From a virus (Duplodnaviria; Caudoviricetes), in IMG/VR virus record IMGVR_UViG_2795385551_000010, positions 1 to 64,000 of that record: a stretch of 64,000 nt of DNA; one strand, 5' to 3'. This document shows, piece after piece, positions 1 through 28,322 of this stretch. Below the pieces are notes generated by a model. It did no database searches. It was not told the origin of the DNA and saw only the letters and a program-made list of their open reading frames with translations. Numbering within the stretch: the first letter of the stretch is position 1; the number at the start of each line of letters is the position of its first letter. The position numbers and the translations under genes were made by a program.

Positions 1-1485
1 ATGTTGGCTGCTCCGGTGTGGATGGCGTCGCCGCCTGAGGTGCATTCAGCCCTGCTCAGCAGTGGTCCGGGCCCCGGCCCCCTGCTCGCGGCGGCCGCCG
101 AATGGTCGTCGTTAGGCGCGCACTACAGCGCAACTGCCCAAGAACTCCGGGCAATTCTGGCCGCCACCCACGCGAGTGCATGGCACGGCCCAAGCGCGGA
201 AACGTATGTGGCAGCACACACTCCATACCTGGAATGGCTGAACCAGGGAGCCCTCGAGAGCAACGCCCGGGCAGTCCAGCATGGAGCCGCCGCCAGCGCC
301 TACAGCACCGCGCTGGCCGTGATGCCCACTCTTGCCGAGCTTGCCGCCAATCACGCCACACACGCGGCACTGGTGGCAACAAACTTCTTCGGAATCAACA
401 CAATTCCCATCCTCGCCACCGAGGCGGACTATGTCCGCATGTGGGTGCAGGCCGCCACCACGATGGCGACCTACCAAACGGCCTCCGAGGTGGCGTTGGC
501 GTCCGCCCCTCCCTCAACACCACCGCCGTCGATCCTGCACGATCATGATCACGGACACGACGATCACGACCATGAGCACGGTCACGATGACGACCATGGG
601 CACGGAGATCTGGACCCGACCGACCCGGAATGGTGGGTGCATGTGGCCGGAGAGATGGTCGAGCATTTCGAGTTGCTGCTCAACAACCTGCTCACCGATC
701 CCGCCGCGCTGCTCACCAACCTGCCAATGGTCTTGGCAGATGTGGCATTCCACGCGGCCCAATTGGCGTCGACAATCGGCCAGTTCGCACCGGCACTGAT
801 TCAGCCGGCGTTGGCTCTGGCGATCGCCAACCTGGGTTGGGCGGCCGGGTTCGCGGGCCTGGCCGGAATCCAGCCGTCACCGGAAATCCTTGCCGTGGAA
901 CCGGGTTCCGTCGAAGATCCTCCCATGGCTGCGTCCGCCGGCACGGCTCCGGCACCCAGCCCGCCCGCCTCGGCCCCCGCCCCGGCAGCACCTGCAAGCG
1001 CCCCCGCACCCACCGCACCCGGCACCGTGCCCGCTCCGCCATCGCCGCCGCCCGTCGGCGACCCGGGATTCTCCTTCCCGTATGCCGTCGGTGGCGGGCC
1101 GCGTCTCGGCACCGGGTTGGCGCTGGCGGCTCAAGTACGTAGGGCAACCAGTGCGGCAGCGCGGTCCTCGGCGCGAGAGCAGGCCGCCACCGCGGAAACC
1201 GCAGCGGCCCGTCAGGCACGACGACGGCGAGACAAGAGCAAGCAACAGGGTCGCGGCATCGAGTACATGGATATGGATGCCACTGCGCGGTGCGAGGGGC
1301 CTGCTCCTGACCCCACCGCCTCGCACCGCGGAGCCGGCCCCATGGGATTCGCCGGGACCGTAATCAAAACGGGCGCAACGGCATCAGGGTTGGCGACGCT
1401 AAGTCGCGACGACGACTTGTTCGAGGGAGCGCGGGCGCCGATGGTGCCCAATACGTGGGACCCGGAGCACGGCCGCCAGGACTAA
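1..1485 (+). CDS. PPE family protein (PPE-PPW subfamily) with His/Asp-rich insert
   Basis: N-terminal [20 protein letters not shown] (WxG), [11 protein letters not shown] and [11 protein letters not shown] motifs; C-terminal GPMGFAGT...PMVPNTW; HD-rich tract at 538-609. Confidence 0.95.
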
Positions 1486-7741: not shown

Positions 7742-8236
7742 TCAGCGCCAGAGCAGCGTGAGCTCTCCGCCGTCGGGGAGTTCCGCCCAGCGCGGTGCGA
7801 AGTCGTCGTAGCGGGCGAAGATCCGGTCCAGGAGAGCGGGTTCGACGTAGACCTCGGCCGCTGGCCCGGGCCACGGGCCAGCGGCCTGCCGGTGGCCGCG
7901 CTCGACCTCCCACAGCGCCGCCGTCAGCGACGCGAGGTACTCCGACCGTGCCATGTCCGCCGCCTGCGCCGCCGTGGGCTTGCGGTTTCGCCGGGACGCC
8001 TTCCGCCGCTCCGCCGGATCGGCGGGCCAGAAGAGCCCGTCGAGGCCGTTGGCGTCGGCGAGGCGCCCGAACACGCCGCCGCGCAGCCGCGCCTCCTGCT
8101 CGACGATGAGGTGCGCCGCGTCGTGCGGCACGGGTGGACGGCCACCCGGCCCGCCGCGCGGCGTGAGCTCGGGGCCCCTCTCCCGGCGGATCCGCACGTC
8201 GTACCCGTTCCGGCGCTTGACGAACGTGACCTCCAT
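7742..8236 (-). CDS. Hypothetical protein with HDxxH (zincin-like variant) motif
   Basis: MEVTFVKRR...VPHDAAHLIVEQEARLRGGVFG...SEYLA; start taken at ATG 8236 within the longer ORF. Confidence 0.75.
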   Translation of the reverse strand: MEVTFVKRRNGYDVRIRRERGPELTPRGGPGGRPPVPHDAAHLIVEQEARLRGGVFGRLADANGLDGLFWPADPAERRKASRRNRKPTAAQAADMARSEYLASLTAALWEVERGHRQAAGPWPGPAAEVYVEPALLDRIFARYDDFAPRWAELPDGGELTLLWR

Positions 8237-8539
8237 GCCCTCTAGGGTGCGTCCTAGGCGGGGGCGCCACAACCGGTTTTCGACGGCCTGCGGCCCGCCC
8301 GCCACGCGCCCCACAGTGATTCCATGTCGATCCGTGACCGCTGGTGCCCGTCCCTCCTCGACGCGACGGCCGGACTCGGAGCGGTCTACAGCACGTAACC
8401 CAAGCCGTGGGAGCCCAGGTGTCAGGATCCGCCCCGTCGACGGGGCCCTTCTTCGGCCGCCCAGCAGCTGAACATCGCCCGCCTGATCGCTGGATATGGT
8501 GGGTGACATCGTCGGGAAGCGAGGGATGAGGGGAGCGCC

Positions 8540-9028
8540 GTGGATGGTCTGAGTGACGTGTCGGTCGATCACCGCGTCCGGCGTTGGAACCTCGCACGGT
8601 CGCTGTTCGCGTTCCTCACGTTGGCAGGGGTCGTGTTCTGCATCGCCAGTGCGCTCGGCACCTCCCCGCACTGGGTGTGGATCGCGGGGTTCGCCGCCAC
8701 CTTGGTGAGCGGGTGCCTGCTCAGGATCGCCTGGGACAAGCACCGCGTGGCTCTCTTCGCGGGAGCCCCCACCGCCGTGGGCACGGTCCGCGACGTGCTG
8801 GAAAGCCAGTTCGGAGACGGGGCATCGAAGTACCAGCTGCTGATCGATGCGGAACTCGCACACGGGGTGTCGATCCACCGGCGGATCGACACCGGCGGGG
8901 ATCCCGATCCGCTCGGCTGGGTCGGGAAGCCGGTCCGGTTCCGTCACCGCACCCTCGACCCGGACGACCTCGACGACGCGTTCGTCGGTCGCGAGGAGCG
9001 CAACGCGTCGTTGGGGCCTGGCTCGTGA
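8540..9028 (+). CDS. Array family A membrane protein (2 TM + DUF3592-like beta domain)
   Basis: Two TM helices; GKPVRFRHRTLDPDDLDDAF; GAGGGGAG SD before GTG. Confidence 0.85.
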   Translation: MDGLSDVSVDHRVRRWNLARSLFAFLTLAGVVFCIASALGTSPHWVWIAGFAATLVSGCLLRIAWDKHRVALFAGAPTAVGTVRDVLESQFGDGASKYQLLIDAELAHGVSIHRRIDTGGDPDPLGWVGKPVRFRHRTLDPDDLDDAFVGREERNASLGPGS

Positions 9029-9534
9029 GCGCCCACGATTCCGCGTCGACAGCGCCCGGCCGCGCCTACCGCTGGTGGGGCGTCGGGGCGATCACGTGCC
9101 TGGTTCTGGCGGTGACCGGTCTGCTCGGAGCCATCGCGAGCGCGTTCAGCTCCAGCCCAGAACAGCTGTGGGTCGCAACCGCCGTCGCGGTCTTCGTCCT
9201 GATCCCGGCGGGCATCCTCGGCGGCCTCTACTGCGGGCACCGGCGGTACCGCGCGCGGTTCACCAACGCGCATGTTTCCGAAGCGCCGATCGAAGAGGTC
9301 ACCGAGGTGCGTCGTACCAACGACGACGGCAGCGTCTCGCGCTACTTCATGCTCACCGTGTCCGTGGCAGTGGAGGGCGGGCCGGCCATCCGAAGGCACT
9401 GCACCGTGGGTGGGGACCACCCCCGCCCACGGATCGGGCAGACGCTGCGCTTCCGGCACACCACGCTGGACCCCGACGACCTGGAGGACGCACTGTTCGA
9501 CAGCATCCGCGAACATCAGCGAGGCACCGGGTGA
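9025..9534 (+). CDS. Array family A membrane protein
   Basis: GTGA overlap; 2 TM; GQTLRFRHTTLDPDDLEDALF. Confidence 0.85.
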   Translation: MSAHDSASTAPGRAYRWWGVGAITCLVLAVTGLLGAIASAFSSSPEQLWVATAVAVFVLIPAGILGGLYCGHRRYRARFTNAHVSEAPIEEVTEVRRTNDDGSVSRYFMLTVSVAVEGGPAIRRHCTVGGDHPRPRIGQTLRFRHTTLDPDDLEDALFDSIREHQRGTG

Positions 9535-10286
9535 GTCCGACTGAGCTTCGGCCCTGGCCCGCCGATCCCGTGTCCGCATGGGCGCAGGCAGTCGCTGCCC
9601 CAGCGGCGAAGTCACGGTATGGCGAGCGGCCGTCGATCAGGCCGTTGGAGGAGATTGCGGCTGACGTGCGCGGGCAGCGGGTGTTCGTGCCGGCGGTCGC
9701 CCTGGTGTTCACCGTAGCTGGTGCGATTCTCGTCGGTGGCCTGCTGGTCGGGGTGTTCCCGCTGAGCGGGCGCAGCACCTCCGCTGGTGTGCAGTGGTTC
9801 GCCGGCGTCGTTCTGCTGATCGTTGGGCCGGCGCTGTGGCTCGGGCACCGGCAGTGGCGCAAGTATGAAGAGCGCCAGGGTTTCCCACCCGCGCGCGGTG
9901 TGCTGTGTGAGATCTATCCGACGAGCTTTCACATCGGTGACGGCGATGGGTGGTGCCTGACCTCGGTCGCTATCGACGCACGGACCCCGGATGAGCAGGT
10001 GTCGAGGATCGCGACCGCATTCCGGATCTGGCTGGCCCGCCTCGAAGCCGACAAGGAGGCCGACTCCGCCGCCAAGAATGCGTGGAACTCGGGGTTCCGG
10101 CGGCGCATCATCAACACCTTCGCATCTGACGAGATCTTCGGCCCCGAGGCCTCCGGTGGATACCTCGTCCGCGGGACCGCCAGGCGTTCACGGTGGGCGC
10201 TGCTGCTCGACTGGCGAGAACCCGAGGCCCCGGCATACCCGATGCGCAATGCGCTCGTGATCCCCGTCGACCAGGCACAGGGGTGA
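9531..10286 (+). CDS. Array family B membrane protein
   Basis: GTGA overlap; PWPADPVSAW, 2 TM, LCEIYP, EIFGPEASGGYL. Confidence 0.85.
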   Translation: MSPTELRPWPADPVSAWAQAVAAPAAKSRYGERPSIRPLEEIAADVRGQRVFVPAVALVFTVAGAILVGGLLVGVFPLSGRSTSAGVQWFAGVVLLIVGPALWLGHRQWRKYEERQGFPPARGVLCEIYPTSFHIGDGDGWCLTSVAIDARTPDEQVSRIATAFRIWLARLEADKEADSAAKNAWNSGFRRRIINTFASDEIFGPEASGGYLVRGTARRSRWALLLDWREPEAPAYPMRNALVIPVDQAQG

Positions 10287-10293
10287 GAAGCGC

Positions 10294-11091
10294 ATGGGCT
10301 GGATAGACCGACTGCGCGGGCGGGAGCGGCCGTCCACCGGAGACGCGGCGTCGGCGGACGTCGGTGTCCCGGACCTCGCCGAGCCCGTCTACGCGCGTGC
10401 GCTCGTGCTCCAAGTTGATCACGACGCGGCGATCATCGAGGTCCAGCCGCCGGGCCGAGCCTCCTTCCGAGCGGAACTGCGCAGCGGCACGGATCCAGGG
10501 AGCTTCACCGGACTGGTCATCCGCTGGCACGCCCCAGTGATCATCGACGGGGCCGACCCGAAACGCGTGATCCTGCTCGAACCACCGTGCGGCCCGGATC
10601 TGCCGCTCGTGCCAGATGATCTGCAGGCGATCCGAGACTCCCGGGACCTGCGCACGAGCGCCTTGGCGGCGCTGTACCCGCCGCCCTCCGCCGCCGAACT
10701 CGCCAACCTGATGACACCGACCGCGTCGGCGGCGCACCCGGCCTGGGACGCCGTCTGTTACCGGCTCGGCCTGCTGACGACGCCCGAGGCCCAGGCCATC
10801 CTCGATCACATCCGCCGTGACGGAAACGCCTGGGTTCGAGCAGAAGCCGAGCTGTACTCCTGGGGCCCGAGCATCCCCGACGATCTACGCAAGCAGGTCG
10901 GGGCGTTCCTGTCGCATCTGCATGATGTCGCCCCGCAGGGCCGCGGTATCGATCGCGGGCCGTTCTGGACACTCGGCGTCGCGGCCCTGATGCGCGACCT
11001 CGCCCCCAACGACGTCGACGCCCGAGTCTTCGAACTGGTGATGGGTCCGTTCGTCGACGTCTGCGGCCCGCTGCCGGAGCAGCTGCTGTAG
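10294..11091 (+). CDS. Hypothetical protein, last gene of the + operon
   Basis: 265-aa ORF 7 nt after the previous stop. Confidence 0.75.
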   Translation: MGWIDRLRGRERPSTGDAASADVGVPDLAEPVYARALVLQVDHDAAIIEVQPPGRASFRAELRSGTDPGSFTGLVIRWHAPVIIDGADPKRVILLEPPCGPDLPLVPDDLQAIRDSRDLRTSALAALYPPPSAAELANLMTPTASAAHPAWDAVCYRLGLLTTPEAQAILDHIRRDGNAWVRAEAELYSWGPSIPDDLRKQVGAFLSHLHDVAPQGRGIDRGPFWTLGVAALMRDLAPNDVDARVFELVMGPFVDVCGPLPEQLL

Positions 11092-11104
11092 CGCGTTGCT
11101 CGGT

Positions 11105-11866
11105 TCACAGCGTTGGGAAGCCCTCCGGTTCTCCCCTGCAGGGCGCGAGCCAGGACAGTCGCCGGTCGCAGCCCACATCGACCATGCTGACTGGCGATCG
11201 GACCTGGTAGACGACGTAGGCGTCCGCGCCCAATCGGGCATCGATACCTATTTGCGTGTGTGCAGTGTCGGGGTCGTCCGGGGTGGGCATCGTGCAGCGG
11301 TCCAGCTGATGAGACGGCGGTACTCCTTCGGGATTCATCCACCAGAGACCTGTCGCAAACTCGTCGATCCTGCTGGCACCGACGTCGGGGGTCAGCACGT
11401 CGAAGAGTGGCTCGGCACAGGAGGGTTCACCCGCAGAGTGGCCACGGAGGCGCTGTGCGACCTGCGCTGCGTCACCGGCATCGGGCGGCAGCGCGTAGAT
11501 CTCGTAGGCCAGGAGCGCGCATTGTTGCCAGTAGAACATGACCACGTCCTGCTCACCGTCGCCATCGCTGTAGCGCGGGGACATCCAACACGAGACCTGA
11601 GTCCATGAGCGCGCCGGGTTTCCTAAGCTCGCGAGCGGTGGCCGGAACTCGTCCTGTTTGGCGAGCAGTTTTGCGCGTCCGGTGGAGACGTCGTCAACCA
11701 GCTGACGGGCGTTGTTCGCCTTGAGAATCCCCGAGACGGGGCCGGGAACGAATACGAAAAGTGCCAGCACCACCACCCCGCTGAGAACACCGAACGTCCA
11801 GCGGCGGCGCGGTGACCACGGCACCGCAGTCGCTTCCACGTCCGCTGGTTCCTGCCCATCACCCAT
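11105..11866 (-). CDS. Single-TM protein with Cys-containing extracellular domain
   Basis: RRRWTFGVLSGVVVLALFVFVP anchor; six Cys downstream. Confidence 0.8.
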   Translation of the reverse strand: MGDGQEPADVEATAVPWSPRRRWTFGVLSGVVVLALFVFVPGPVSGILKANNARQLVDDVSTGRAKLLAKQDEFRPPLASLGNPARSWTQVSCWMSPRYSDGDGEQDVVMFYWQQCALLAYEIYALPPDAGDAAQVAQRLRGHSAGEPSCAEPLFDVLTPDVGASRIDEFATGLWWMNPEGVPPSHQLDRCTMPTPDDPDTAHTQIGIDARLGADAYVVYQVRSPVSMVDVGCDRRLSWLAPCRGEPEGFPTL

Positions 11867-11908
11867 ACACGCCACGATATCGACGCGGGCGCACCCGGCC
11901 TTCGCGCC

Positions 11909-12424
11909 TCAACTGAGCGCACCGAGGATGGCGACTGTGGTCCATGCCGCGGCGACGGCTGCCAGTGCGAGCGACACCCACAGCAACGCCCAGAACGCAC
12001 CAGAGCCGTCACGCGGACCACGCGCCGACCAGAGCAGGGCGATACCCACTCCAAGCCCGTTCGCGCTGACCCCGAGTGCGACCACGGGTAGCGCGAACAT
12101 GCACGCGACGACGAAGAGAGCGGAGATCAACACCAGGATCGTCAGCGCCGCCCGAGTCCACCCTTGCTCGGGATCGTGCCGGCGGCGCAGGACGGTCTCG
12201 AGGATGCTGAACCCGGGGAAAGAAGCGATGAGCCCGCCCATCACGGTCAGCGAGTAGAACACCGGCGCGAACAAGAGCGCCTTGTTCTCCGCGGGGACGT
12301 TGCCGGTCGTCGCACCGAGGGCAAGCATCCCCGTGAACAACAGTGCGCCCAGGATGAGCGGTGCCGTCCCCGTGACGGACGCGCGATCTCCCGCGCCCCT
12401 GGGGGCCGCGCTCCGTCTACTCAC
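11909..12424 (-). CDS. Multi-TM membrane protein
   Basis: GTGA overlap with the stop at 12421; about five hydrophobic helices. Confidence 0.75.
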   Translation of the reverse strand: MSRRSAAPRGAGDRASVTGTAPLILGALLFTGMLALGATTGNVPAENKALLFAPVFYSLTVMGGLIASFPGFSILETVLRRRHDPEQGWTRAALTILVLISALFVVACMFALPVVALGVSANGLGVGIALLWSARGPRDGSGAFWALLWVSLALAAVAAAWTTVAILGALS

Positions 12425-12738
12425 CGCCGCCGTTCCCAGTCGACGAACCAGGTGGACTTTCGGTTCGGTTTCTTTGGGTCGTAGCGGATCCAGTGCTTGC
12501 TGCCGACGTAGGGCTTGTGGGTGCGCGTCATGGCCTTGTGATCGTGCTCGATTCCTTGGGAGTCGGTGAAGCGCAGGATGACGTCGTAGTACGCGTGGAC
12601 GTTGCTGCCCTTCGAGCGCTTCACCTCGACCACCTTCGCCCGCACCCGCGGCCCGGTGAGCCGGATACTCCGAGCACGCTCGGCGCGGCGGTGTCGCCAC
12701 CCGAACAGAGCGCCGAGGAAGTTCTTTGCGCGACTCAT
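12421..12738 (-). CDS. DUF3592-like protein
   Basis: GPRVRAKVV...YDVILRFTDSQG...VGSKHWIRYDPKKP pattern; ATGA overlap. Confidence 0.75.
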   Translation of the reverse strand: MSRAKNFLGALFGWRHRRAERARSIRLTGPRVRAKVVEVKRSKGSNVHAYYDVILRFTDSQGIEHDHKAMTRTHKPYVGSKHWIRYDPKKPNRKSTWFVDWERRR

Positions 12739-13277
12739 GTCACTGGGCCTTCTGCGGGATCTGGTGCATCGACGAACCCGAGGAACAACACATCCTTCAG
12801 GTCGTCCGGGTCGCCGGTGTTGTGGCGGAACCGGACCATCTGTCCAAGCTCCGGCGCCGTGCGCTCAGACACCCGGCAGGTGCGACGGATGCCCCCATTC
12901 GGAAGCCTGGCCGCGATCGTGATGTCGTATGCGGGCAGTGCCTCTGGATCCGTGTGTTCATCGACAACGATCTTGGTGATAGTGCCGCCGGTTTCCTTAC
13001 CGTCGGCATACCGTGCGACGTCGAGCCTGAACGAGGCCAGGCACCACGGGAGGATCGACACCACGAGTACTGCGAAGGCTGCGAGGAAGACCCACCACGG
13101 GCCCGGCTTCCCGAGGACTTCGCGGATCGCAGCCACGACGACGGTGATCACGAACCCCGTCAACCCGAGGCAGGCCAGCCCGAAGAAGACGCGCTTGAGG
13201 AACACCCACCGGCGGATCCGCGCCCGGGTCTCGGGCGTCCGCGCCAGGGCCATCCACGCTGTGGCGTCGCGGTTCAC
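12735..13277 (-). CDS. Array family A membrane protein
   Basis: GTGA overlap; WMALARTPETRARIRRW, 2 TM, GQMVRFRHNTGDPDDLKDVLF. Confidence 0.85.
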   Translation of the reverse strand: MNRDATAWMALARTPETRARIRRWVFLKRVFFGLACLGLTGFVITVVVAAIREVLGKPGPWWVFLAAFAVLVVSILPWCLASFRLDVARYADGKETGGTITKIVVDEHTDPEALPAYDITIAARLPNGGIRRTCRVSERTAPELGQMVRFRHNTGDPDDLKDVLFLGFVDAPDPAEGPVT

Positions 13278-13897
13278 GAGACGAACCTGCGCTTCCCGTT
13301 TAGGAACGGCGACCCTGCTGCGGGTTGTTGGAGGCTTGAGAACTCGGTGTTGCCGTGGAGGCCGGTGATCAGGTAGCCGCTGCGTCGCACGTCGTCGTGT
13401 GCTTCGGTGAGCAGAACCATGGTGTCGGCCAGGTCCGGGTCGGCGAAGGCGTACACATGCCAGCTGCTCTCGGGCGTGAACCGGTCGATCGACGCCTCGT
13501 TGATGAGATCGCCCAGCCAGGCTGTGTGTGTCTTCCCGTCGGCTCCGTCGTAGTCGACGATGACCTTCTTCGTTTGTGCTTCCGCTGTGGTGTCGGGTTG
13601 GTCCCATTCGCGGATCTCGCGCACGCGCGCCACCCGGGGGGTGTGGTCCAGCGCGGGCAGTGGTGTGCTCGACATCGCCTGGAGCCACCCGACGCCGCAC
13701 GCGATCGCGACCACGAGGATGGCGAAGAACAGCATCACGCCGCGGACAGTCCCGTCGAGCGGCAAGGACAAGATGCCCCAGCTCAGAAGGACTGAGCTGA
13801 TCAGGAACAGCCCGAACCACGTCCCACCGTCGGTCCAGAGAGAGCTGCGCGAGCCGTTCACCGGACCTAGCCGGCGGCTGTCTGCTGCGCCGGTCAT
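13274..13897 (-). CDS. Array family C membrane protein
   Basis: ATGA overlap; 2 TM; LPALDHTPRVA...WHVYAFADPDLADTMVLLTEAHDDVRRSG. Confidence 0.85.
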   Translation of the reverse strand: MTGAADSRRLGPVNGSRSSLWTDGGTWFGLFLISSVLLSWGILSLPLDGTVRGVMLFFAILVVAIACGVGWLQAMSSTPLPALDHTPRVARVREIREWDQPDTTAEAQTKKVIVDYDGADGKTHTAWLGDLINEASIDRFTPESSWHVYAFADPDLADTMVLLTEAHDDVRRSGYLITGLHGNTEFSSLQQPAAGSPFLNGKRRFVS

Positions 13898-14538
13898 GCC
13901 GCGAACTCCCATCTTGAGTCCTCGCCGAAGAACGGCGATCCCGGGCGGGGCTTGCGGAACTGGCCGGTGTGCACCTCGCCGCGGACCCCGAGCCAGAGGT
14001 AGATGCCCGAGCGCAGCACCTCGTCGTGGGCCTCCGTCAGGAACACCACGGTGTCCGCGAGCGCTGTATCGCGGAACGCGTACACCTGCCAGGTGCTCCC
14101 GATGGGGAAGCGATCGAGCCAGGATTCATCGACGTCATCGGCGAGATGCACTTCGTATTGTTTGCCATCCCTGCCCTGATAGGTCACGTACAGGCCGGGC
14201 CAACCGGTCACTGAGTCGGTGCCCTCGTTCGCCGAGACCGTCGCAACGCGCGGGGTCCGGTCGATGGCCGGCAGGGTGTCGAGAGATTTCGGGCTGAGAA
14301 GCACTGCGCGCAGGATCACGATGGCAGAGAAGAGCACGAGGAGTCCGATGAAAGCCCACATGAACACCGGCCCCAGCGCTACCAAGAGGACGGCGAGCCC
14401 AACGACCCCGATGATGCAGGCGATGACGATCGTCGGCATCACTCGGTCGTAGCGGTGGATGAACGGCATGTCGGGCCCGTACCCGATGCCCAGCAGCCGC
14501 ATCGTGACCCGGTCGAACACTGATCCGCACTTGCTCAT
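13894..14538 (-). CDS. Array family C membrane protein
   Basis: ATGA overlap; 2 TM; LPAIDRTPRVA...WQVYAFRDTALADTVVFLTEAHDEVLRSG. Confidence 0.85.
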   Translation of the reverse strand: MSKCGSVFDRVTMRLLGIGYGPDMPFIHRYDRVMPTIVIACIIGVVGLAVLLVALGPVFMWAFIGLLVLFSAIVILRAVLLSPKSLDTLPAIDRTPRVATVSANEGTDSVTGWPGLYVTYQGRDGKQYEVHLADDVDESWLDRFPIGSTWQVYAFRDTALADTVVFLTEAHDEVLRSGIYLWLGVRGEVHTGQFRKPRPGSPFFGEDSRWEFAA

Positions 14539-15236
14539 GACGACATCTCTTCGATCCGTGCTTGCGCCCGGTCCCTGCGGTAAGCGCATGCAGCGTATAA
14601 CCAGAAACCGAGCGGGATCGCGACGATGCTGGCCGGGAACAGCACCGCGGGGTTCGTCCAGCCAGGGAAGCCGTCGAACGGATGATTTCCGAGGAAGAGC
14701 ATGCCGATGAGAAGCCAGCATGCCGTCGGGACGACGAGCATGACCCCGCCCCAGCCGATCATGAAGCACAGGCTCGCGAGAACACCCCAGATCCGGTAGC
14801 CAAGCGTCCCAGGACCGTGCGGCCGGAACGGTGCCAGCTCTCCGTCGAGCTCCGCCGGCCATTGGACGACGAGCACGTCGCAGTCGTAGGTCGGATCGAG
14901 CGTCGTGTGGCGGATGACGACTTCCTTCCCGATGAGCCTGCGGCCCGCGGACGGGCCGAGCAGCGGGGACCGGACCGTCCGAGGCAACGTCACATGCTTA
15001 CCGTCGACACTCACGTCGATGTGGATGACGAGGTCATCGTCTGTCGGTCCACCCTCGGGGGAGTCGTTCGACACGGCGTAGCGGATGACGCCGACAGTCT
15101 CTCGCCCCTCGATGAGCTCTTTGCGGAGCGGGGCAGGGCGCGGCTTCGGCGGAGGGGTGAACTCGCTGGCCATGGCCTTCCCGATCCGTCTGAGCACAGA
15201 CCGAGCTGACCGTTGGCCGGGTGAATGATTGCTCAT
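14535..15236 (-). CDS. Array family A variant (beta domain N-terminal, 2 TM C-terminal)
   Basis: ATGA overlap; GKEVVIRHTTLDPTYDCDVL precedes two TM helices. Confidence 0.8.
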   Translation of the reverse strand: MSNHSPGQRSARSVLRRIGKAMASEFTPPPKPRPAPLRKELIEGRETVGVIRYAVSNDSPEGGPTDDDLVIHIDVSVDGKHVTLPRTVRSPLLGPSAGRRLIGKEVVIRHTTLDPTYDCDVLVVQWPAELDGELAPFRPHGPGTLGYRIWGVLASLCFMIGWGGVMLVVPTACWLLIGMLFLGNHPFDGFPGWTNPAVLFPASIVAIPLGFWLYAACAYRRDRAQARIEEMSS

Positions 15237-16051
15237 GATCCGCTCCTCATCGAGTCCCAGTCGATGCCGATCGAGTCGGCGTGCTCGGTGGTCCACCACA
15301 CGGGCAGGGCGTGCGCATGGTGCCAGGGGTTGCCCAGCCGAGCCTTACGGCGGCGGGGGATCGCGAGGAACCAGCGGTGGTGGCGGTCCACGCAGGTGAT
15401 GAAGCCGCCCTTCGCGTCCGGGCCGAAGAGCAGCTCGGTGGGGAGCACCTCCGGGTCCTCCCGCTTCCATCGCCGCCAGAACTCGGCATAGGCCGACGGA
15501 TCCTGCTCGAGCTGGGTCGCCCACTGTTCGCAGGCGCTGACGATGCGCATCGCTTTCTCGCCGTCCATCCGAACGGTCTCGCCTTCGATGCCTCCGCCGC
15601 CGAGCAGGATCGTCGCGACGGCGGCGCTCGACGGGTGCTTGCGCAGCCGCAGCCGGTACGGGTGCGCCTCGCACAGCATCGCGGAATCCACGACCCACGC
15701 GGTCGGCCCCCAAGACCGGCGCGGGTACAGCAGCAAGAAGACACCGAGCGGCACCATCACTGCGGCTACCAACGCCGCCATTCCGACGACGAGCCAGTCC
15801 TCCGGCTCGCCCGAGAGCGACCGAAGCAGCATCATCACGCTTATCGCCGTGACAACGAGCAGCCCGACCCCGGCAACCTGGTTCATCAGACCGCTCATCT
15901 TCTGCAGCCGGGTGCCGAGATCGTCCATACGGGGGATCGCCTCAGGCCGGTCGGAGAGACGGTGCGTCCGCGCGCGCTCTTCCACGGCGGCCCACGCCGT
16001 GGCCGGATCGCCCGGCCAGGGCTGCACTGCGATCTCATCTACTCGGCTCAT
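15233..16051 (-). CDS. Array family B membrane protein
   Basis: PWPGDPATAW, 2 TM, LCEAHP, ELLFGPDAKGGFI; alternative GTG start at 16057 overlaps the upstream stop. Confidence 0.85.
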   Translation of the reverse strand: MSRVDEIAVQPWPGDPATAWAAVEERARTHRLSDRPEAIPRMDDLGTRLQKMSGLMNQVAGVGLLVVTAISVMMLLRSLSGEPEDWLVVGMAALVAAVMVPLGVFLLLYPRRSWGPTAWVVDSAMLCEAHPYRLRLRKHPSSAAVATILLGGGGIEGETVRMDGEKAMRIVSACEQWATQLEQDPSAYAEFWRRWKREDPEVLPTELLFGPDAKGGFITCVDRHHRWFLAIPRRRKARLGNPWHHAHALPVWWTTEHADSIGIDWDSMRSGS

Positions 16052-16053
16052 CG

Positions 16054-16674
16054 TCACCACCCCTTCGTCTCGCGGTCCGGCCAGCCATCGAAGCGCACGT
16101 CGTACAGATCGTCGGGGTCGACCGTGTTGTGCAGGATGCGGATCCTGCGCCCGATCCAGGTCTCGTCCGGGCCGCCGTGATCGCTCCTGCCGCCGTCGAG
16201 GTGCCGGTGCAGCGTGAGCTCGTCGGAGGGCCAGGCGGTCACACGGACGCGGTAGACGGTGATGAGGTCGCCCTCGCCGTCCCGCTCCTCCCAGCTCGTC
16301 ACGCCCTCGACGACACCGATCGCGCTGTCCGCGTCGGCGTACTGGGCCCTGCCCAGCAGAGAGCTGGCGATGCCATACGGGATCGCCCCCAGCACTACGA
16401 CGCCGGTCGCGATCGGGAAGCCCCAGAACAGGATCTCGGGGTAAACGGTGCGTGTGATCCAGAACCAGATCATGCTCCCGAGGGTCACCGGGAGCATGAG
16501 CAGGAGCAGGAGGCCGCCGACCACCATGGGCCAGATGGTGATGTTTTCGATCCGAGACAGGCGGCGGATCCGGGCGCGGGTCTCCGGGGTCTTCGCGAGG
16601 CTCGCCCAGTGCTCGGCATGCTGGTCCTTCGTGGGCCGATCCCACGTCCGAGAGAAGAGCCGGAGTCTGCTCAT
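16054..16674 (-). CDS. Array family A membrane protein
   Basis: ATGA overlap; WASLAKTPETRARIRRL, 2 TM, GRRIRILHNTVDPDDLYDVRFDGWPD. Confidence 0.85.
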   Translation of the reverse strand: MSRLRLFSRTWDRPTKDQHAEHWASLAKTPETRARIRRLSRIENITIWPMVVGGLLLLLMLPVTLGSMIWFWITRTVYPEILFWGFPIATGVVVLGAIPYGIASSLLGRAQYADADSAIGVVEGVTSWEERDGEGDLITVYRVRVTAWPSDELTLHRHLDGGRSDHGGPDETWIGRRIRILHNTVDPDDLYDVRFDGWPDRETKGW

Positions 16675-17288
16675 GACCGGCTCCCGTTCCGGTCCGGCCA
16701 GCCGTCGAAGCGCACGTCCCGCAGATCGTCGGGATCGAGGGTGTTGTGGCGGAACCGGATCGATCTGCCTACCCATCTTCGGGGGATGGGCCAGCTGGTG
16801 TTGTCCTCGCCCCAGTCGAGCCTGCGGCGCAACAATGTCCCGTCGGGGAGCTCTGCGCCGATGAGCAACTCGTAGGTGGTCTGCTCGTCCCCACCGCCCG
16901 GGTGGGTGATGACTTCCTCGACACGCCCGACCGTCGACTGTCCGTCGGCGTAGAGCGCCGTCAACCGCCGGTCACTCGCATACGACCCGGACCAGGCACC
17001 TGCGAGCAGCAGGATGAATGCGGCGCCGAGCGGAGCAAACAGGAACCACAGCCACGGCGGGGCCTGATCGTCGAACGCGCTCCAAATACCTGAGGTGAGA
17101 CCGAGAACCGGGGCGGCGAAGACGCAGATGCCGCCGAGCAGCAGCAACCAGAAGCTGACGGACTCCCATCTCGCCCAGCGCCGGATCTCCGTTCGGGTCT
17201 CGACAGTCCGTGCCCGCGCCATCCACTGCCTGGTCTGCTGATCGGTCCCGAACACACTTCGCAGCGTGATAATCCGGAAGCTGCTCAT
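16671..17288 (-). CDS. Array family A membrane protein
   Basis: ATGA overlap; WMARARTVETRTEIRRW, 2 TM, GRSIRFRHNTLDPDDLRDVRFDGWPD. Confidence 0.85.
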   Translation of the reverse strand: MSSFRIITLRSVFGTDQQTRQWMARARTVETRTEIRRWARWESVSFWLLLLGGICVFAAPVLGLTSGIWSAFDDQAPPWLWFLFAPLGAAFILLLAGAWSGSYASDRRLTALYADGQSTVGRVEEVITHPGGGDEQTTYELLIGAELPDGTLLRRRLDWGEDNTSWPIPRRWVGRSIRFRHNTLDPDDLRDVRFDGWPDRNGSRS

Positions 17289-18118
17289 GACGTACTCCGT
17301 CGTTCTGTCTTCCGGTGGAGTCTGCGGCGGATCCTCGCGAGTCTCTTCGGTACCGGCACAGGTGTGACGATCACGTCGCGCTCGTCCTCTTGCGGTTGGG
17401 TGATGAGCATCCACTGGTGCTCGGTGGTGTCTCCGGCGATCGTTGAGACGGGGAGATGCAGGATGAAGTACCCACCCTTGGCCTGCGGACCGAACAGCGT
17501 CTCCGAGGAGATCGGCTTGGAGCCCGAAGGCGGCAGTCCTGCCTGAAAGAGCCACAGCTCGAACGCGGCGTGAATCGTCGCAGCCTGTCCGTCATCGAGG
17601 CGGTGGTCGAGGGCGATGTACGTCGCCCAGCGAGCCTCACCGTCGTCGTAGTCGATGCAGGCGCGATGGATCGAGTGCGCGACGCCGTGCCCGTAGACCC
17701 ACGCGTTCTCGACACGCAGATCCCTCAGCGCACTGAGCCGCAGCAGCAGAACCCCGACGGCGATGAGCAGCCATACGGTGACGCCGATCCATGCGAGCCA
17801 CGGCACCCAAGCCAGCCACGTATCACGGCTCGCACCATTTGCCGCGATGCTCCAGCCAGCACTCGTCGGGTCGGTGATCATCTGGTAGATCAGGAAACCG
17901 ATGACAGCGAGGGGAAGGAACACCCAGAACACGGGCGCGTACACGAGCTCGGTGCGCCGCAGATCCTCGCTGCCGGCCCATCGGCTAATCTCGTCGACCG
18001 ACTCCGGACGCGGAACGTCGTGAGAGCGATCGAGGGTGGTCGGCATCGATGCGCTCGCGCTCGCCCATATCACTGAGTGATCGCTGGGGGTCGCCATCCC
18101 CGGGCTGTGCTGCGGCAT
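17285..18118 (-). CDS. Array family B membrane protein, first gene of the - operon
   Basis: GGAGG SD upstream; 2 TM; ETLFGPQAKGGYFIL. Confidence 0.85.
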   Translation of the reverse strand: MPQHSPGMATPSDHSVIWASASASMPTTLDRSHDVPRPESVDEISRWAGSEDLRRTELVYAPVFWVFLPLAVIGFLIYQMITDPTSAGWSIAANGASRDTWLAWVPWLAWIGVTVWLLIAVGVLLLRLSALRDLRVENAWVYGHGVAHSIHRACIDYDDGEARWATYIALDHRLDDGQAATIHAAFELWLFQAGLPPSGSKPISSETLFGPQAKGGYFILHLPVSTIAGDTTEHQWMLITQPQEDERDVIVTPVPVPKRLARIRRRLHRKTERRSTS

Positions 18119-18483
18119 GTGTCCGCCCCTCCCGTCAGGTCAGGGATCGCCATAGTGTGGTGCGGTTCTGTGTCGTCCCGACCAGTGCTCACCGCCGTCC
18201 GCGGGGTGCGTAACGTCCCTTCTCTTCTCTATCCACACTGTCCCATGACGCGTGCTACCGATCACAAGGAGAAGCGTTTTCGGGGAGCGCGCAATTCGTC
18301 TCGAGCTCGACGCGGTTTCCCCGGAATCGAAGCATCCGGCCCGAGCTGGCGTTTCAGTGGCCTCGGAAACCGACGCGTGGCGCCTCACGTGAGTTACAGC
18401 CTCAGCCGTTCCTTACTTCCCGATCGGCGCGTAGCTGCCAGATGGCCAGATTCGCGCTTGCGAGCACCCACCCCAGAAACGAG

Positions 18484-18509
18484 AAAACCACCCGCTATCA
18501 GGTGGTTTT
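18484..18509 (-). terminator. Hairpin just downstream of the displaced tRNA-Phe 3' end
   Basis: AAAACCACC-N8-GGTGGTTTT perfect inverted repeat, followed by T-rich sequence on the - strand. Confidence 0.7.
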
Positions 18510-18510
18510 A

Positions 18511-18556
18511 TGGTGGCCAGGGCCGGGATCGAACCGGCGACCTTCCGCTTTTCAGG
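18511..18556 (-). repeat. AICE att core: duplicated 3' 46 bp of tRNA-Phe
   Basis: Identical to 28246..28291 (tggtggccagggccgggatcgaaccggcgaccttccgcttttcagg). Confidence 0.97.
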
Positions 18557-18650
18557 TGGATAAAATGGCCACTGACCTGCGGTTTAACTGCTTTCGTACG
18601 TCAAATACGGCGCACTGAGCAGGTCCGACGCATTCAGTCTGTCTGACGAT

Positions 18651-28245: not shown

Positions 28246-28322
28246 TGGTGGCCAGGGCCGGGATCGAACCGGCGACCTTCCGCTTTTCAGGCGGACGCTC
28301 GTACCAACTGAGCTACCTGGCC
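28246..28322 (-). tRNA. tRNA-Phe(GAA)
   Basis: GGCCAGGTAGCTCAGTTGG...CTGAAAA...GGTTCGATCCC...CCA. Confidence 0.97.

What the first reader, a model, noticed from the sequence alone, without database searches (positions are those of the whole stretch)
8540..18118. Fifteen-gene array dominated by three paralogous 2-TM protein families: candidate undescribed poly-immunity or sensor system
Seen: two convergent operons, most genes coupled by ATGA/GTGA overlaps. Family A has 6 genes sharing R(F/I)RHxTLDPDDLxD, three also WxxxAxTxETRxxIRR. Family B has 3 genes (PWPxDPxxAW in two; ExxFGPxAxGG in all). Family C has 2 genes (WxVYAF...TEAHDxVxRSG). There is also a DUF3592-like gene whose RYDP end parallels family A. 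One family A member has reversed TM/domain order. No enzyme, transporter or toxin is recognisable, and GC is visibly above the flanks. Known: tandem diverged small membrane paralogs typify immunity arrays against type VII toxins. Inference: an acquired bank of orphan immunity proteins, or a hetero-oligomeric anti-phage or envelope complex. Its position between a candidate toxin locus and an ESX-effector prophage fits the first idea.
Basis: partly seen in the sequence, partly recalled or inferred. Interest (0 to 1): 0.82.

Follow-up and report, generated by a model that had tools for sequence, protein, structure and literature searches.

The report
Array of membrane-tethered OB-barrel proteins
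Mycobacteroides abscessus carries a tightly packed 15-gene cluster, at least 11 of whose genes encode diverged versions of one undescribed protein type (a two-helix membrane hairpin holding a small barrel domain inside the cell); they probably work together as mixed complexes, and nothing links them to toxins.

Summary
There are 15 real genes in two convergent operons (8540-11091 on +, 11105-18118 on -). Eleven of the 13 within-operon junctions are ATGA/GTGA overlaps, and the three paralog families and all quoted motifs are present. GC is 67% against 63% and 58% in the flanks.

New here:
- Families A and B are remote homologues (hhalign 91%, E 1e-6).
- AlphaFold models (pLDDT 88 and 81) show that A, B and C are all a membrane helix or hairpin followed by a generic OB-type beta-barrel. 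Charge distribution places the barrel in the cytoplasm.
- C and B occur fused in one polypeptide in other actinobacteria.
- A+A and A+reversed-A pairs are conserved across genera.
- The six window A genes belong to six old subfamilies.

These points favour mixed complexes over a bank of interchangeable immunity genes. In about 30 related loci the neighbours are metabolic or regulatory genes. None is a WXG100, toxin or known defence gene.

The array lies next to tRNA-Phe in strains that lack the neighbouring AICE. It is present in thousands of M. abscessus assemblies, including the type strain, and is rare elsewhere. g6-g5 is a separate module.

Function is still unknown. My best guess is a membrane-level conflict or envelope module. 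The scan met a related array before, in M. smegmatis (e1-2652140).

The parts
8540..9028 (+). g1, family A (162 aa): 2-TM hairpin plus C-terminal barrel, motif VRFRHRTLDPDDL
9025..9534 (+). g2, family A (169 aa). GTGA overlap with g1. Orthologues 59-64% identical in three Mycobacterium/Mycolicibacterium genomes
9531..10286 (+). g3, family B (251 aa): N-terminal PWPADP..AW, 2-TM hairpin, C-terminal barrel with FGPEASGG. A 68% orthologue lies directly after a g2 orthologue in L009
10294..11091 (+). g4, soluble 265-aa protein with no detectable family. Found almost only in M. abscessus
11105..11875 (-). g5, 256 aa: one N-terminal TM helix plus about 205 aa outside the cell, with six invariant Cys and an invariant PRYSDGDGEQ motif. 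Belongs to a separate module: six of seven related loci have no A/B/C gene
11909..12424 (-). g6, about 4-TM protein (171 aa from the GTG at 12424). Precedes g5 also in L021 and L026
12421..12738 (-). g7, 105-aa DUF3592 barrel without a clear TM helix
12735..13277 (-). g8, family A (180 aa), a long-branch member
13274..13912 (-). g9, family C (start at 13912, or at 13897 with an ATGA overlap): TM hairpin plus barrel, W.VYAF...TEAHD.V.RSG
13894..14538 (-). g10, family C (214 aa). 51% orthologue in Streptomyces locus L006
14535..15236 (-). g11, reversed family A (233 aa): barrel first, then 2 TM helices. Member of a conserved subfamily that always follows an A or C gene
15233..16057 (-). g12, family B (274 aa)
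16054..16674 (-). g13, family A (206 aa). 59-62% orthologues in Streptomyces (L006) and genome G005 (L013), each the second gene of an A-A pair
16671..17288 (-). g14, family A (205 aa). Modelled at pLDDT 88: N-terminal helix, TM hairpin 29-112, 5-strand OB barrel 117-196
17285..18118 (-). g15, family B (277 aa), first gene of the minus operon. Its 90%-identity cluster includes UniProt B1MI58_MYCA9 of the M. abscessus type strain
18484..18560 (-). Right border: 50-nt copy of the 3' part of tRNA-Phe (18511-18560, left att site of the neighbouring AICE), followed by a terminator-like hairpin (18484-18509). Not part of the array, but fixes its position beside tRNA-Phe

Best explanation
What it is (largely shown). 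The array is an accumulation of at least 11 old, diverged members of one rare actinobacterial superfamily of small membrane proteins. Each has a membrane helix or two-helix hairpin with a very short outer loop, followed directly by a 5-strand OB-type beta-barrel. The barrel is predicted to lie on the cytoplasmic face. In the reversed form the barrel comes first. A short conserved N-terminal helix precedes the hairpin.

How it is organised (inferred). The different subfamilies (several A types, reversed A, B, C) are made in fixed ratios through translational coupling. They assemble into mixed oligomers in the membrane rather than acting as independent, interchangeable proteins.

What it does (inferred, not shown). 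It was acquired horizontally by the M. abscessus lineage next to tRNA-Phe and has been kept there. I think it most likely works as a membrane-level sensor/effector or exclusion module. The cytoplasmic barrels would bind a ligand through the invariant charged patch R...RFRH.T.DPDDL, and the hairpins would act on the membrane.

My split for the role:
- about 30% anti-phage or anti-mobile-element module
- about 35% envelope or membrane-enzyme accessory scaffold, in the manner of NfeD or of the DUF3592 protein ML2271
- about 15% toxin immunity
- about 20% something else

g6-g5 (a 4-TM protein plus an exported Cys-rich protein) is a separate module at the end of the operon.
For: Fold.
- AlphaFold2 of g14 with 45 sequences: pLDDT 88.4, helices 29-70 and 79-112, then strands 117-196.
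- The barrel aligns to the OB domains of DNA ligases (Z 7.4, rmsd 3.0, 82 residues), CsaA/Trbp111 and Rpb7-type S1 domains (Z 6.4-6.9).
- A C-B fusion, P0068, was modelled at pLDDT 80.6. It shows a barrel at 37-102, and a hairpin at 200-272 followed by a barrel with a helix between strands 3 and 4. The best matches are IF1, S1, eIF2alpha and eIF5A OB folds at weak E-values of 0.014-0.08.

One superfamily. A versus B by hhalign gives probability 91%, E 1.1e-6, over 163 columns.

Topology. Hairpin loops are 5-30 aa with 0-2 Lys/Arg, while the N- and C-terminal parts are Lys/Arg-rich.

Working together.
- Proteins of 400-490 aa fuse C to B.
- An A gene is directly followed by reversed A in L002, L003, L012, L015 and L017, and A-A pairs occur in L006 and L013.
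- Reversed A is never found alone.
- The subfamilies are well-supported old clades.
- Eleven of 13 junctions overlap by 4 nt.

Accessory and acquired.
- Family A has 34 clusters among 5.8 billion proteins, and is found in 6 of 401 genomes of the family-level sample.
- Family B is found in 3 of 401 genomes of the phylum sample.
- Identity reaches about 60% across orders (Jiangella, Microbacterium, Gordonia).
- GC is higher than in the flanks.

Kept and expressed in M. abscessus.
- Variants are seen on 1000 or more contigs, in all three subspecies.
- Contigs of RNA-seq runs from three studies cover it.
- Low-depth stranded reads of a fourth run fit the annotated strands.
- 15 synonymous against 14 non-synonymous differences between alleles, roughly pN/pS 0.3.
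Against: - No experiment bears on these proteins, and no partner of known function is linked to them.
- Oligomer formation was not modelled, because no multimer prediction was available.
- A and B genes also occur alone in several genomes (L001, L004, L005, L038, L039), so a mixed complex is not obligatory for every member.
- The cytoplasmic location rests only on charge distribution and the absence of conserved cysteines.
- The OB matches are generic and weak (Foldseek E about 0.01, Z about 7).
- Related loci do not lie in recognisable defence islands, and no relative was found in 50,697 phage records. Both points weaken the anti-phage reading.
- The patchy, transfer-prone distribution weakens the housekeeping-scaffold reading.
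- RNA-seq contigs may include DNA carry-over, and the raw-read depth is only about 1-6.
Confidence: 0.45

Rival explanations
1. Bank of orphan immunity proteins. Each paralog neutralises a different secreted toxin (ESX/type VII or another) delivered by competitors, and the array is kept as a defensive collection.
For: - The array holds many diverged small membrane paralogs.
- The distribution is accessory, patchy and prone to horizontal transfer.
- A PPE gene and an unexplained 789-aa membrane protein lie 4-8 kb to the left.
- A DUF3592 gene sits in one LXG effector group of Streptococcus suis, function unclear (PMC12482557).
- Orphan immunity genes can occur away from toxins.
Against: - No toxin, WXG100 or secretion gene lies beside relatives in about 30 loci.
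- The paralogs are ancient subfamilies with their own orthologues, not recent recombining copies.
- Fusions and conserved heterotypic pairs imply joint action.
- Gene content is the same in two M. abscessus alleles that differ by about 1.3%.
- The prophage and AICE neighbourhood is incidental.
Confidence: 0.15
2. Accessory scaffold or regulator of membrane enzymes or membrane domains. The cytoplasmic barrels dock onto partner proteins. Short NfeD proteins do this with SPFH/flotillin proteins, and the DUF3592 protein ML2271 is predicted to do this with the mannosyltransferase MptB.
For: - The build is the same as short NfeD proteins, on my own knowledge of that family: TM helices plus a cytoplasmic OB barrel.
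- A DUF3592 protein is predicted as an MptB cofactor (bioRxiv 10.64898/2026.07.15.738315).
- g7 is a true DUF3592 member.
- Neighbours in other genomes are ordinary metabolic and regulatory genes.
- The array is stably kept across M. abscessus.
- The operon ends with an exported envelope-type protein, g5.
Against: - No SPFH/Band-7 gene, glycosyltransferase or other candidate client lies in the array or is conserved next to relatives.
- No Pfam NfeD match was found.
- A rare, patchy distribution with about 60% identity across orders is unusual for a housekeeping cofactor.
- Thirteen copies in one locus is hard to explain by one client.
Confidence: 0.3
3. Cyclic-nucleotide-gated or otherwise signal-gated membrane-disrupting effectors of the Cap15 / 2TM-beta type, here orphaned from their signal-producing enzyme.
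For: The general build is the same: two N-terminal TM helices plus a C-terminal beta-barrel inside the cell. The Cap15 comparison rests on my own knowledge of Duncan-Lowey et al. 2021 and was not read here.
Against: - No PADLOC match for the 10 proteins scanned.
- No cyclase or other signal-producing gene is recognisable in the array (Pfam) or among the neighbours scanned in related loci.
- The barrel has 5 strands of OB type, whereas Cap15 has 8 strands (the Cap15 count is from my own knowledge).
- No Cap15 structure appeared among the fold matches. That absence is weak evidence only.
Confidence: 0.05

Closest known systems
DUF3592 (Pfam PF12158) membrane proteins, including the Rv1733c-like family
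   Same: Small bacterial membrane proteins with a beta-barrel next to a TM helix and a conserved '...V.YDP..P' type ending. g7 of the array is a member (26.2 bits). The ending of family A (RFRHNTLDPDDL) occupies the same position in the alignment.
   Different: Families A, B and C are not recognised by the Pfam model, neither in the window nor in four genomes known to carry family A. A profile-profile comparison of A with g7-type DUF3592 is not significant (E 0.019). DUF3592 itself has no established function.
Short (truncated) NfeD proteins such as YuaF/YbbJ (Pfam PF01957)
   Same: N-terminal TM helices followed by a cytoplasmic OB-fold barrel (my own knowledge of the family). Such a barrel acts as a protein-docking module.
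   Different: No PF01957 match at E up to 1. No SPFH/flotillin partner gene in the array or in related loci. NfeD genes are not known to form arrays of a dozen paralogs.
Type VII secretion immunity-gene arrays of Firmicutes (esaG, tipC, tsaI)
   Same: Tandem runs of small, diverged, often membrane-bound paralogs with no enzymatic domain.
   Different: No adjacent toxin or secretion genes here or in related loci. The paralogs are ancient subfamilies with fusions and conserved heterotypic pairs. No copy-number variation was seen between the M. abscessus alleles examined.
Orphan membrane-anchored OB-barrel gene array noted earlier by this scan in Mycolicibacterium smegmatis (e1-2652140)
   Same: Same kind of tightly packed operon of 'TM hairpin plus small cytoplasmic barrel' paralogs in a mycobacterium. 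It shares short sequence words with g14. Function also unknown.
   Different: That array was described as strain-variable with seven or eight genes. This one has 15 genes, is widespread across M. abscessus, and here the B and C families, their fusion and the A-B homology are added.

Membership tests
DUF3592 (PF12158) | Match to the Pfam model above its gathering score | tested here: not met
   Only g7 passes (26.2 against 25.3 bits). No A, B or C protein matches at E up to 1. PF12158 finds nothing at the family A genes of G001, G005, G028 and G384.
DUF3592 (PF12158) | Profile-level homology of family A to bona fide DUF3592 sequences | tested here: inconclusive
   hhalign of A5 against A9 gives E 0.019, probability 2.4%. 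The first three strands are aligned in the expected register.
Short NfeD (PF01957) | Match to the NfeD C-terminal OB model | tested here: not met
   No PF01957 hit for any of the 15 proteins at E up to 1.
Short NfeD (PF01957) | Adjacent SPFH/Band-7 partner gene | tested here: not met
   No Band-7 family hit in the array. None among the neighbours scanned in related loci.
Short NfeD (PF01957) | Structural similarity of the barrel to solved NfeD OB domains | tested here: inconclusive
   No NfeD chain is listed among the Foldseek and VIA rows. Generic OB folds score Z 6.4-7.4. Absence from a list does not exclude similarity.
T7SS immunity arrays | Cognate toxin or WXG100/LXG gene in the same locus | tested here: not met
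   None among the array genes. None among the neighbours scanned or clustered in about 30 related loci.
T7SS immunity arrays | Tandem paralogs | tested here: met
   Six A, three B and two C genes plus g7.
T7SS immunity arrays | Neutralisation of a toxin | not testable with these tools
   Needs co-expression or competition assays.
Cap15 / 2TM-beta CBASS-type effectors | Match to known effector models and a linked signal-producing enzyme | tested here: not met
   No PADLOC match for 10 representative proteins. No cyclase-type gene is recognisable in the array.
OB-fold (structural class) | Five-strand closed barrel, with a helix between strands 3 and 4 in the classical form | tested here: met
   Models. 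The whole domain 116-200 aligns to ligase OB, CsaA and S1-type domains at Z 6.4-7.4. The IF1/S1 family tops the list for the fusion model.

The most novel reading that the evidence does not exclude
A, reversed A, B and C are the subunits of a previously undescribed multi-subunit membrane machine of Actinomycetota. In it, a ring or lattice of TM hairpins is gated by cytoplasmic OB barrels that sense nucleic acid or a protein entering at the membrane. It would give M. abscessus a species-wide exclusion system against phages or conjugative elements.
Probability: 0.2. Interest if true: 0.8.

Novelty: new variant of a known kind. Interest (0 to 1): 0.58.

Why it matters
M. abscessus is a hard-to-treat pathogen and a target of phage therapy. 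A 10-kb locus with about a dozen membrane proteins of unknown function is present across the species and rare elsewhere. That makes it a plausible contributor to phage or plasmid exclusion, or to envelope properties.

More generally, families A, B and C have no Pfam, NCBIfam or PADLOC model. The A-B homology, the C-B fusions and the conserved heterotypic pairs now define them as one superfamily with testable partnerships. 'TM hairpin plus small barrel' arrays keep turning up in this scan in unrelated bacteria, so working out one of them could explain many.

Tried and rejected
- The search for related loci found nothing with the single protein g14. Alignments A7 and A8 were too diverged for it.
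- I looked for a genome lacking the island by searching the left flank in 401 genomes. Only the PPE gene and the 7742-8314 gene matched, so the left border of the island is not fixed.
- No third copy of the tRNA-Phe att repeat lies to the left. I therefore could not show that the array is a decayed integrative element.
- The array DNA has no megablast match in phage records and g14 has no tblastn match there. On plasmids only the upstream gene matches. g14 has two weak relatives on large Rhodococcus and Streptomyces plasmids, with ordinary neighbours at the Rhodococcus hit, the only one examined.
- VIA wide search was dominated by the helical hairpin: AhlB, HlyD and coiled coils at Z 9-10, below the level that counts for helical matches.
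- The viral fold library gave only generic OB matches.
- Sequence searches against solved structures found nothing.
- ESM Atlas gave only unnamed actinobacterial clusters for g5 and nothing for g4.
- hhalign of A against C and of A against g4 was not significant. C is therefore tied to the superfamily by fold and by its fusion to B only. g4 remains unplaced.
- A paper search for UniProt B1MI58 found nothing. I could not map the genes to MAB_ locus tags, so published Tn-seq and expression tables were not consulted.
- The careful tree did not finish. The quick IQ-TREE tree was used instead.

Full report

The window is high-GC DNA, and a plain ORF list is full of overlapping false frames. A third-position GC frame plot with direct reading of the frames gives a clean picture.
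- Four genes lie on the + strand: g1 8540-9028, g2 9025-9534, g3 9531-10286, g4 10294-11091.
- Eleven genes lie on the - strand, from g15 (17285-18118) down to g5 (11105-11875).
- The two operons converge with 13 nt between their stop codons.
- Eleven of the 13 within-operon junctions are 4-nt ATGA or GTGA overlaps.

- Family A comprises g1, g2, g8, g13 and g14. g11 has the same domain placed before its TM helices.
- Family B comprises g3, g12 and g15.
- Family C comprises g9 and g10.
- g7 passes Pfam DUF3592 (26.2 bits, cut-off 25.3).

Pfam, NCBIfam and PADLOC recognise nothing else. GC is 67.1% in the array, 63.2% to the left and 57.9% in the element to the right.

**2. What the proteins are**

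*Topology.* Hydropathy and charge counts show that every A, B and C protein has a two-helix hairpin. The connecting loop is short (5-30 aa) and nearly free of Lys/Arg, while the N- and C-terminal parts are Lys/Arg-rich. This indicates N-in/C-in, with the soluble domains in the cytoplasm. It is an inference from the positive-inside rule.

*Family A model.* An AlphaFold2 model of g14 with 45 homologues has pLDDT 88.4. It shows a short N-terminal helix, helices 29-70 and 79-112, and a five-strand barrel at 117-196. Foldseek and VIA-align place the barrel among generic OB folds:
- DNA-ligase OB domains: Z 7.4, rmsd 3.0, 82 residues
- CsaA/Trbp111 and S1-type Rpb7 domains: Z 6.4-6.9

The matches are weak but cover the whole domain.

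*Family B and the fusions.* A full HMMER search with the three B genes found 82 representative proteins among 1.84 billion. Several are 400-490 aa long. Read and aligned, these turn out to be family C fused in front of family B. The model of one fusion, P0068, has pLDDT 80.6. Its C part is a five-strand barrel after one TM helix. Its B part is a TM hairpin followed by a barrel with a helix between strands 3 and 4, which is the classical OB layout. The best fold matches are IF1, S1, eIF2alpha and eIF5A OB domains, at weak E-values of 0.014-0.08.

*One superfamily.* A profile-profile comparison shows that A and B are homologous over the N-terminal helix, the hairpin and the start of the barrel (probability 91%, E 1.1e-6, 163 columns). 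The three 'families' are therefore branches of one superfamily of membrane-tethered OB barrels. C is tied to it by fold and by fusion only, because A against C is not significant by sequence.

*Relation to DUF3592.* This is a resemblance, not membership. The Pfam model misses A, B and C, and A against g7-type sequences is not significant.

**3. Are the genes a system?**

Related loci were fetched from species-representative genomes and compared by tblastn and clustering.

Recurrent units:
- An A gene directly followed by reversed A occurs in a Nocardioides MAG (L002), in Streptomyces genomes (L003, L012) and in genomes G028 (L015) and G001 (L017).
- A-A pairs occur in which the second gene is the g13 type (L006, L013).
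- A is followed by B in L009 (64% and 68% identical to g2 and g3).
- Streptomyces locus L006 carries A-A-C-reversed A, then a short B-like fragment, a g6-like gene and a g5 orthologue. Identity to the window genes is 42-62% (37% for the fragment).

Reversed A and C are never found alone. A and B sometimes are.

A quick maximum-likelihood tree puts the six window A genes in six different, mostly well-supported old subfamilies. Each has its own orthologues in other genera, so the array was not built by recent duplication.

Fusions, conserved heterotypic pairs and translational coupling together argue that different members act together, most simply as mixed oligomers. This is an inference. No multimer prediction was possible.

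g5 is different. It has one TM helix and about 205 residues outside the cell, with six invariant cysteines and an invariant PRYSDGDGEQ motif. In six of seven related loci it occurs without any A, B or C gene, sometimes with a g6-like gene. g6-g5 is therefore a separate module. g4 has no detectable relatives outside M. abscessus, apart from one 39-residue tblastn fragment in locus L020, and no assignable fold.

**4. Context and distribution**

*Rarity outside M. abscessus.*
- Family A has 34 clusters among 5.8 billion proteins.
- It is found in 6 of 401 genomes sampled from the family of G001.
- Family B is found in 3 of 401 genomes sampled from the phylum.
- Identity reaches about 60% between M. 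abscessus and Jiangella, Microbacterium or Gordonia.
- Motif scans of 185,579 species representatives returned no other Mycobacteroides species.

*Within M. abscessus.* Here the genes are common. Single sequence variants are recorded on 1000 or more contigs, from all three subspecies. One g15 variant is UniProt B1MI58 of the type strain.

*Transcription and selection.* Contigs of RNA-seq runs from three studies span the array. Raw stranded reads of a fourth run cover it at depth 1-6, in a pattern that fits the annotated strands for g1, g5 and g15. A second allele differs at about 1.3% of positions with the same gene content. Of 29 listed differences, 15 are synonymous and 14 are not, which gives roughly pN/pS 0.3.

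*Position.* The neighbouring integrative element is bounded by a 50-nt repeat of the 3' part of tRNA-Phe, at 18511-18560 and 28246-28295. In other strains, reads and contigs run from 18560 straight into the rest of the tRNA. The array therefore lies beside tRNA-Phe independently of the element and of the prophage.

*Neighbours elsewhere.* In other genomes the neighbours of A, B and C genes are TetR and MerR regulators, dehydrogenases, HAD hydrolase, ferritin, AMP-ligase, methyltransferases, one VapC and several unknowns. No WXG100, toxin, secretion or known defence gene was seen. No relative is present in 50,697 phage records.

**5. How it most likely works**

Shown:
- the fold plan
- the superfamily relation of A and B
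- the fusions
- the conserved pairs
- the accessory, patchy distribution
- fixation in M. abscessus

Inferred:
- the cytoplasmic location of the barrels
- mixed oligomers
- horizontal acquisition

The role is not shown. The invariant residues of family A (R155, H181, D191, and the near-invariant R178-F179-R180) fall in and around strands 3 to 5 of the modelled barrel. Their mix of positive and negative charges could fit a ligand-binding or docking site next to the membrane.

My odds for the role:
- membrane-enzyme or membrane-domain accessory scaffold of the NfeD / ML2271 type: about 35%
- anti-phage or anti-mobile-element sensor/effector: about 30%
- toxin immunity: about 15%
- something else: about 20%

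**6. Comparison with what is known, and novelty**

The closest known kinds are:
- DUF3592 proteins. One member, g7, lies in the array, and the function of the family is unknown. One paper places a DUF3592 gene in an LXG effector group of Streptococcus suis (PMC12482557). One preprint predicts a DUF3592 protein as an MptB cofactor.
- Short NfeD proteins. They have the same build, but there is no model match and no SPFH partner.
- Firmicute T7SS immunity arrays. They share the tandem-paralog layout, but here there is no toxin.

This scan already met a related array in an M. smegmatis strain (e1-2652140) and reached a similar 'orphan membrane-anchored OB-barrel array' verdict.

New here are the A-B homology, the C-B fusions, the subfamily-specific pairs, the separate g6-g5 module and the species-wide presence in M. 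abscessus.

I rate it a new variant of a known kind (membrane-tethered OB-barrel proteins). It is of real but moderate interest, because the function is still open.

Noticed in passing
window 7742-8314 (-): A 190-aa gene with 75.6% GC and no Pfam family, divergent from g1. Its DNA is 80-85% identical to about 25 Mycobacteriales genomes and to Tsukamurella tyrosinosolvens 'plasmid 12' (annotated hypothetical, next to an SGNH hydrolase). This is unusually high DNA-level conservation across genera.
   Followed up: partly
window 9355 (in g2): Other M. abscessus strains (RNA-seq runs X17, X19) carry a 24-nt in-frame insertion, four copies of CCGTGT, behind this position.
   Followed up: no
window 18511-18560 and 28246-28295: In runs X19 and X21 the sequence continues from 18560 directly into the rest of tRNA-Phe. 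The 9.7-kb integrative element is therefore absent in those strains, and the array abuts an intact tRNA-Phe.
   Followed up: partly
window 10208-11410: Stranded raw reads of X21 show minus-strand RNA over g5. It continues antisense across g4, with five molecules ending near 10600. This looks like read-through between the convergent operons, whose stop codons are only 13 nt apart.
   Followed up: no
window 1-1485 (+): A PPE gene of the PPE-PPW subfamily (Pfam E 1.5e-58) lies at the left end of the window. It is an ESX substrate family, about 7 kb from the array.
   Followed up: no
L044 and L045, 9947-10930: The C-B fusion genes of two Nocardioides genomes lack the stretch matching the B TM hairpin (P0068 residues about 192-272). 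They may be single-TM proteins with two barrels.
   Followed up: no
L015 8542-9206 and 13202-13830: Two copies of a small gene plus a PIN-domain (VapC-like) gene flank the A + reversed-A pair in genome G028. This is the only conflict-type neighbour seen in any related locus.
   Followed up: no
window 18484-18509 (-): A strong terminator-like hairpin (11 pairs, then a T run) lies just downstream of the tRNA-Phe remnant. The g15 operon must therefore have its own promoter within 18119-18483. No sigma-70-type consensus was found there.
   Followed up: no
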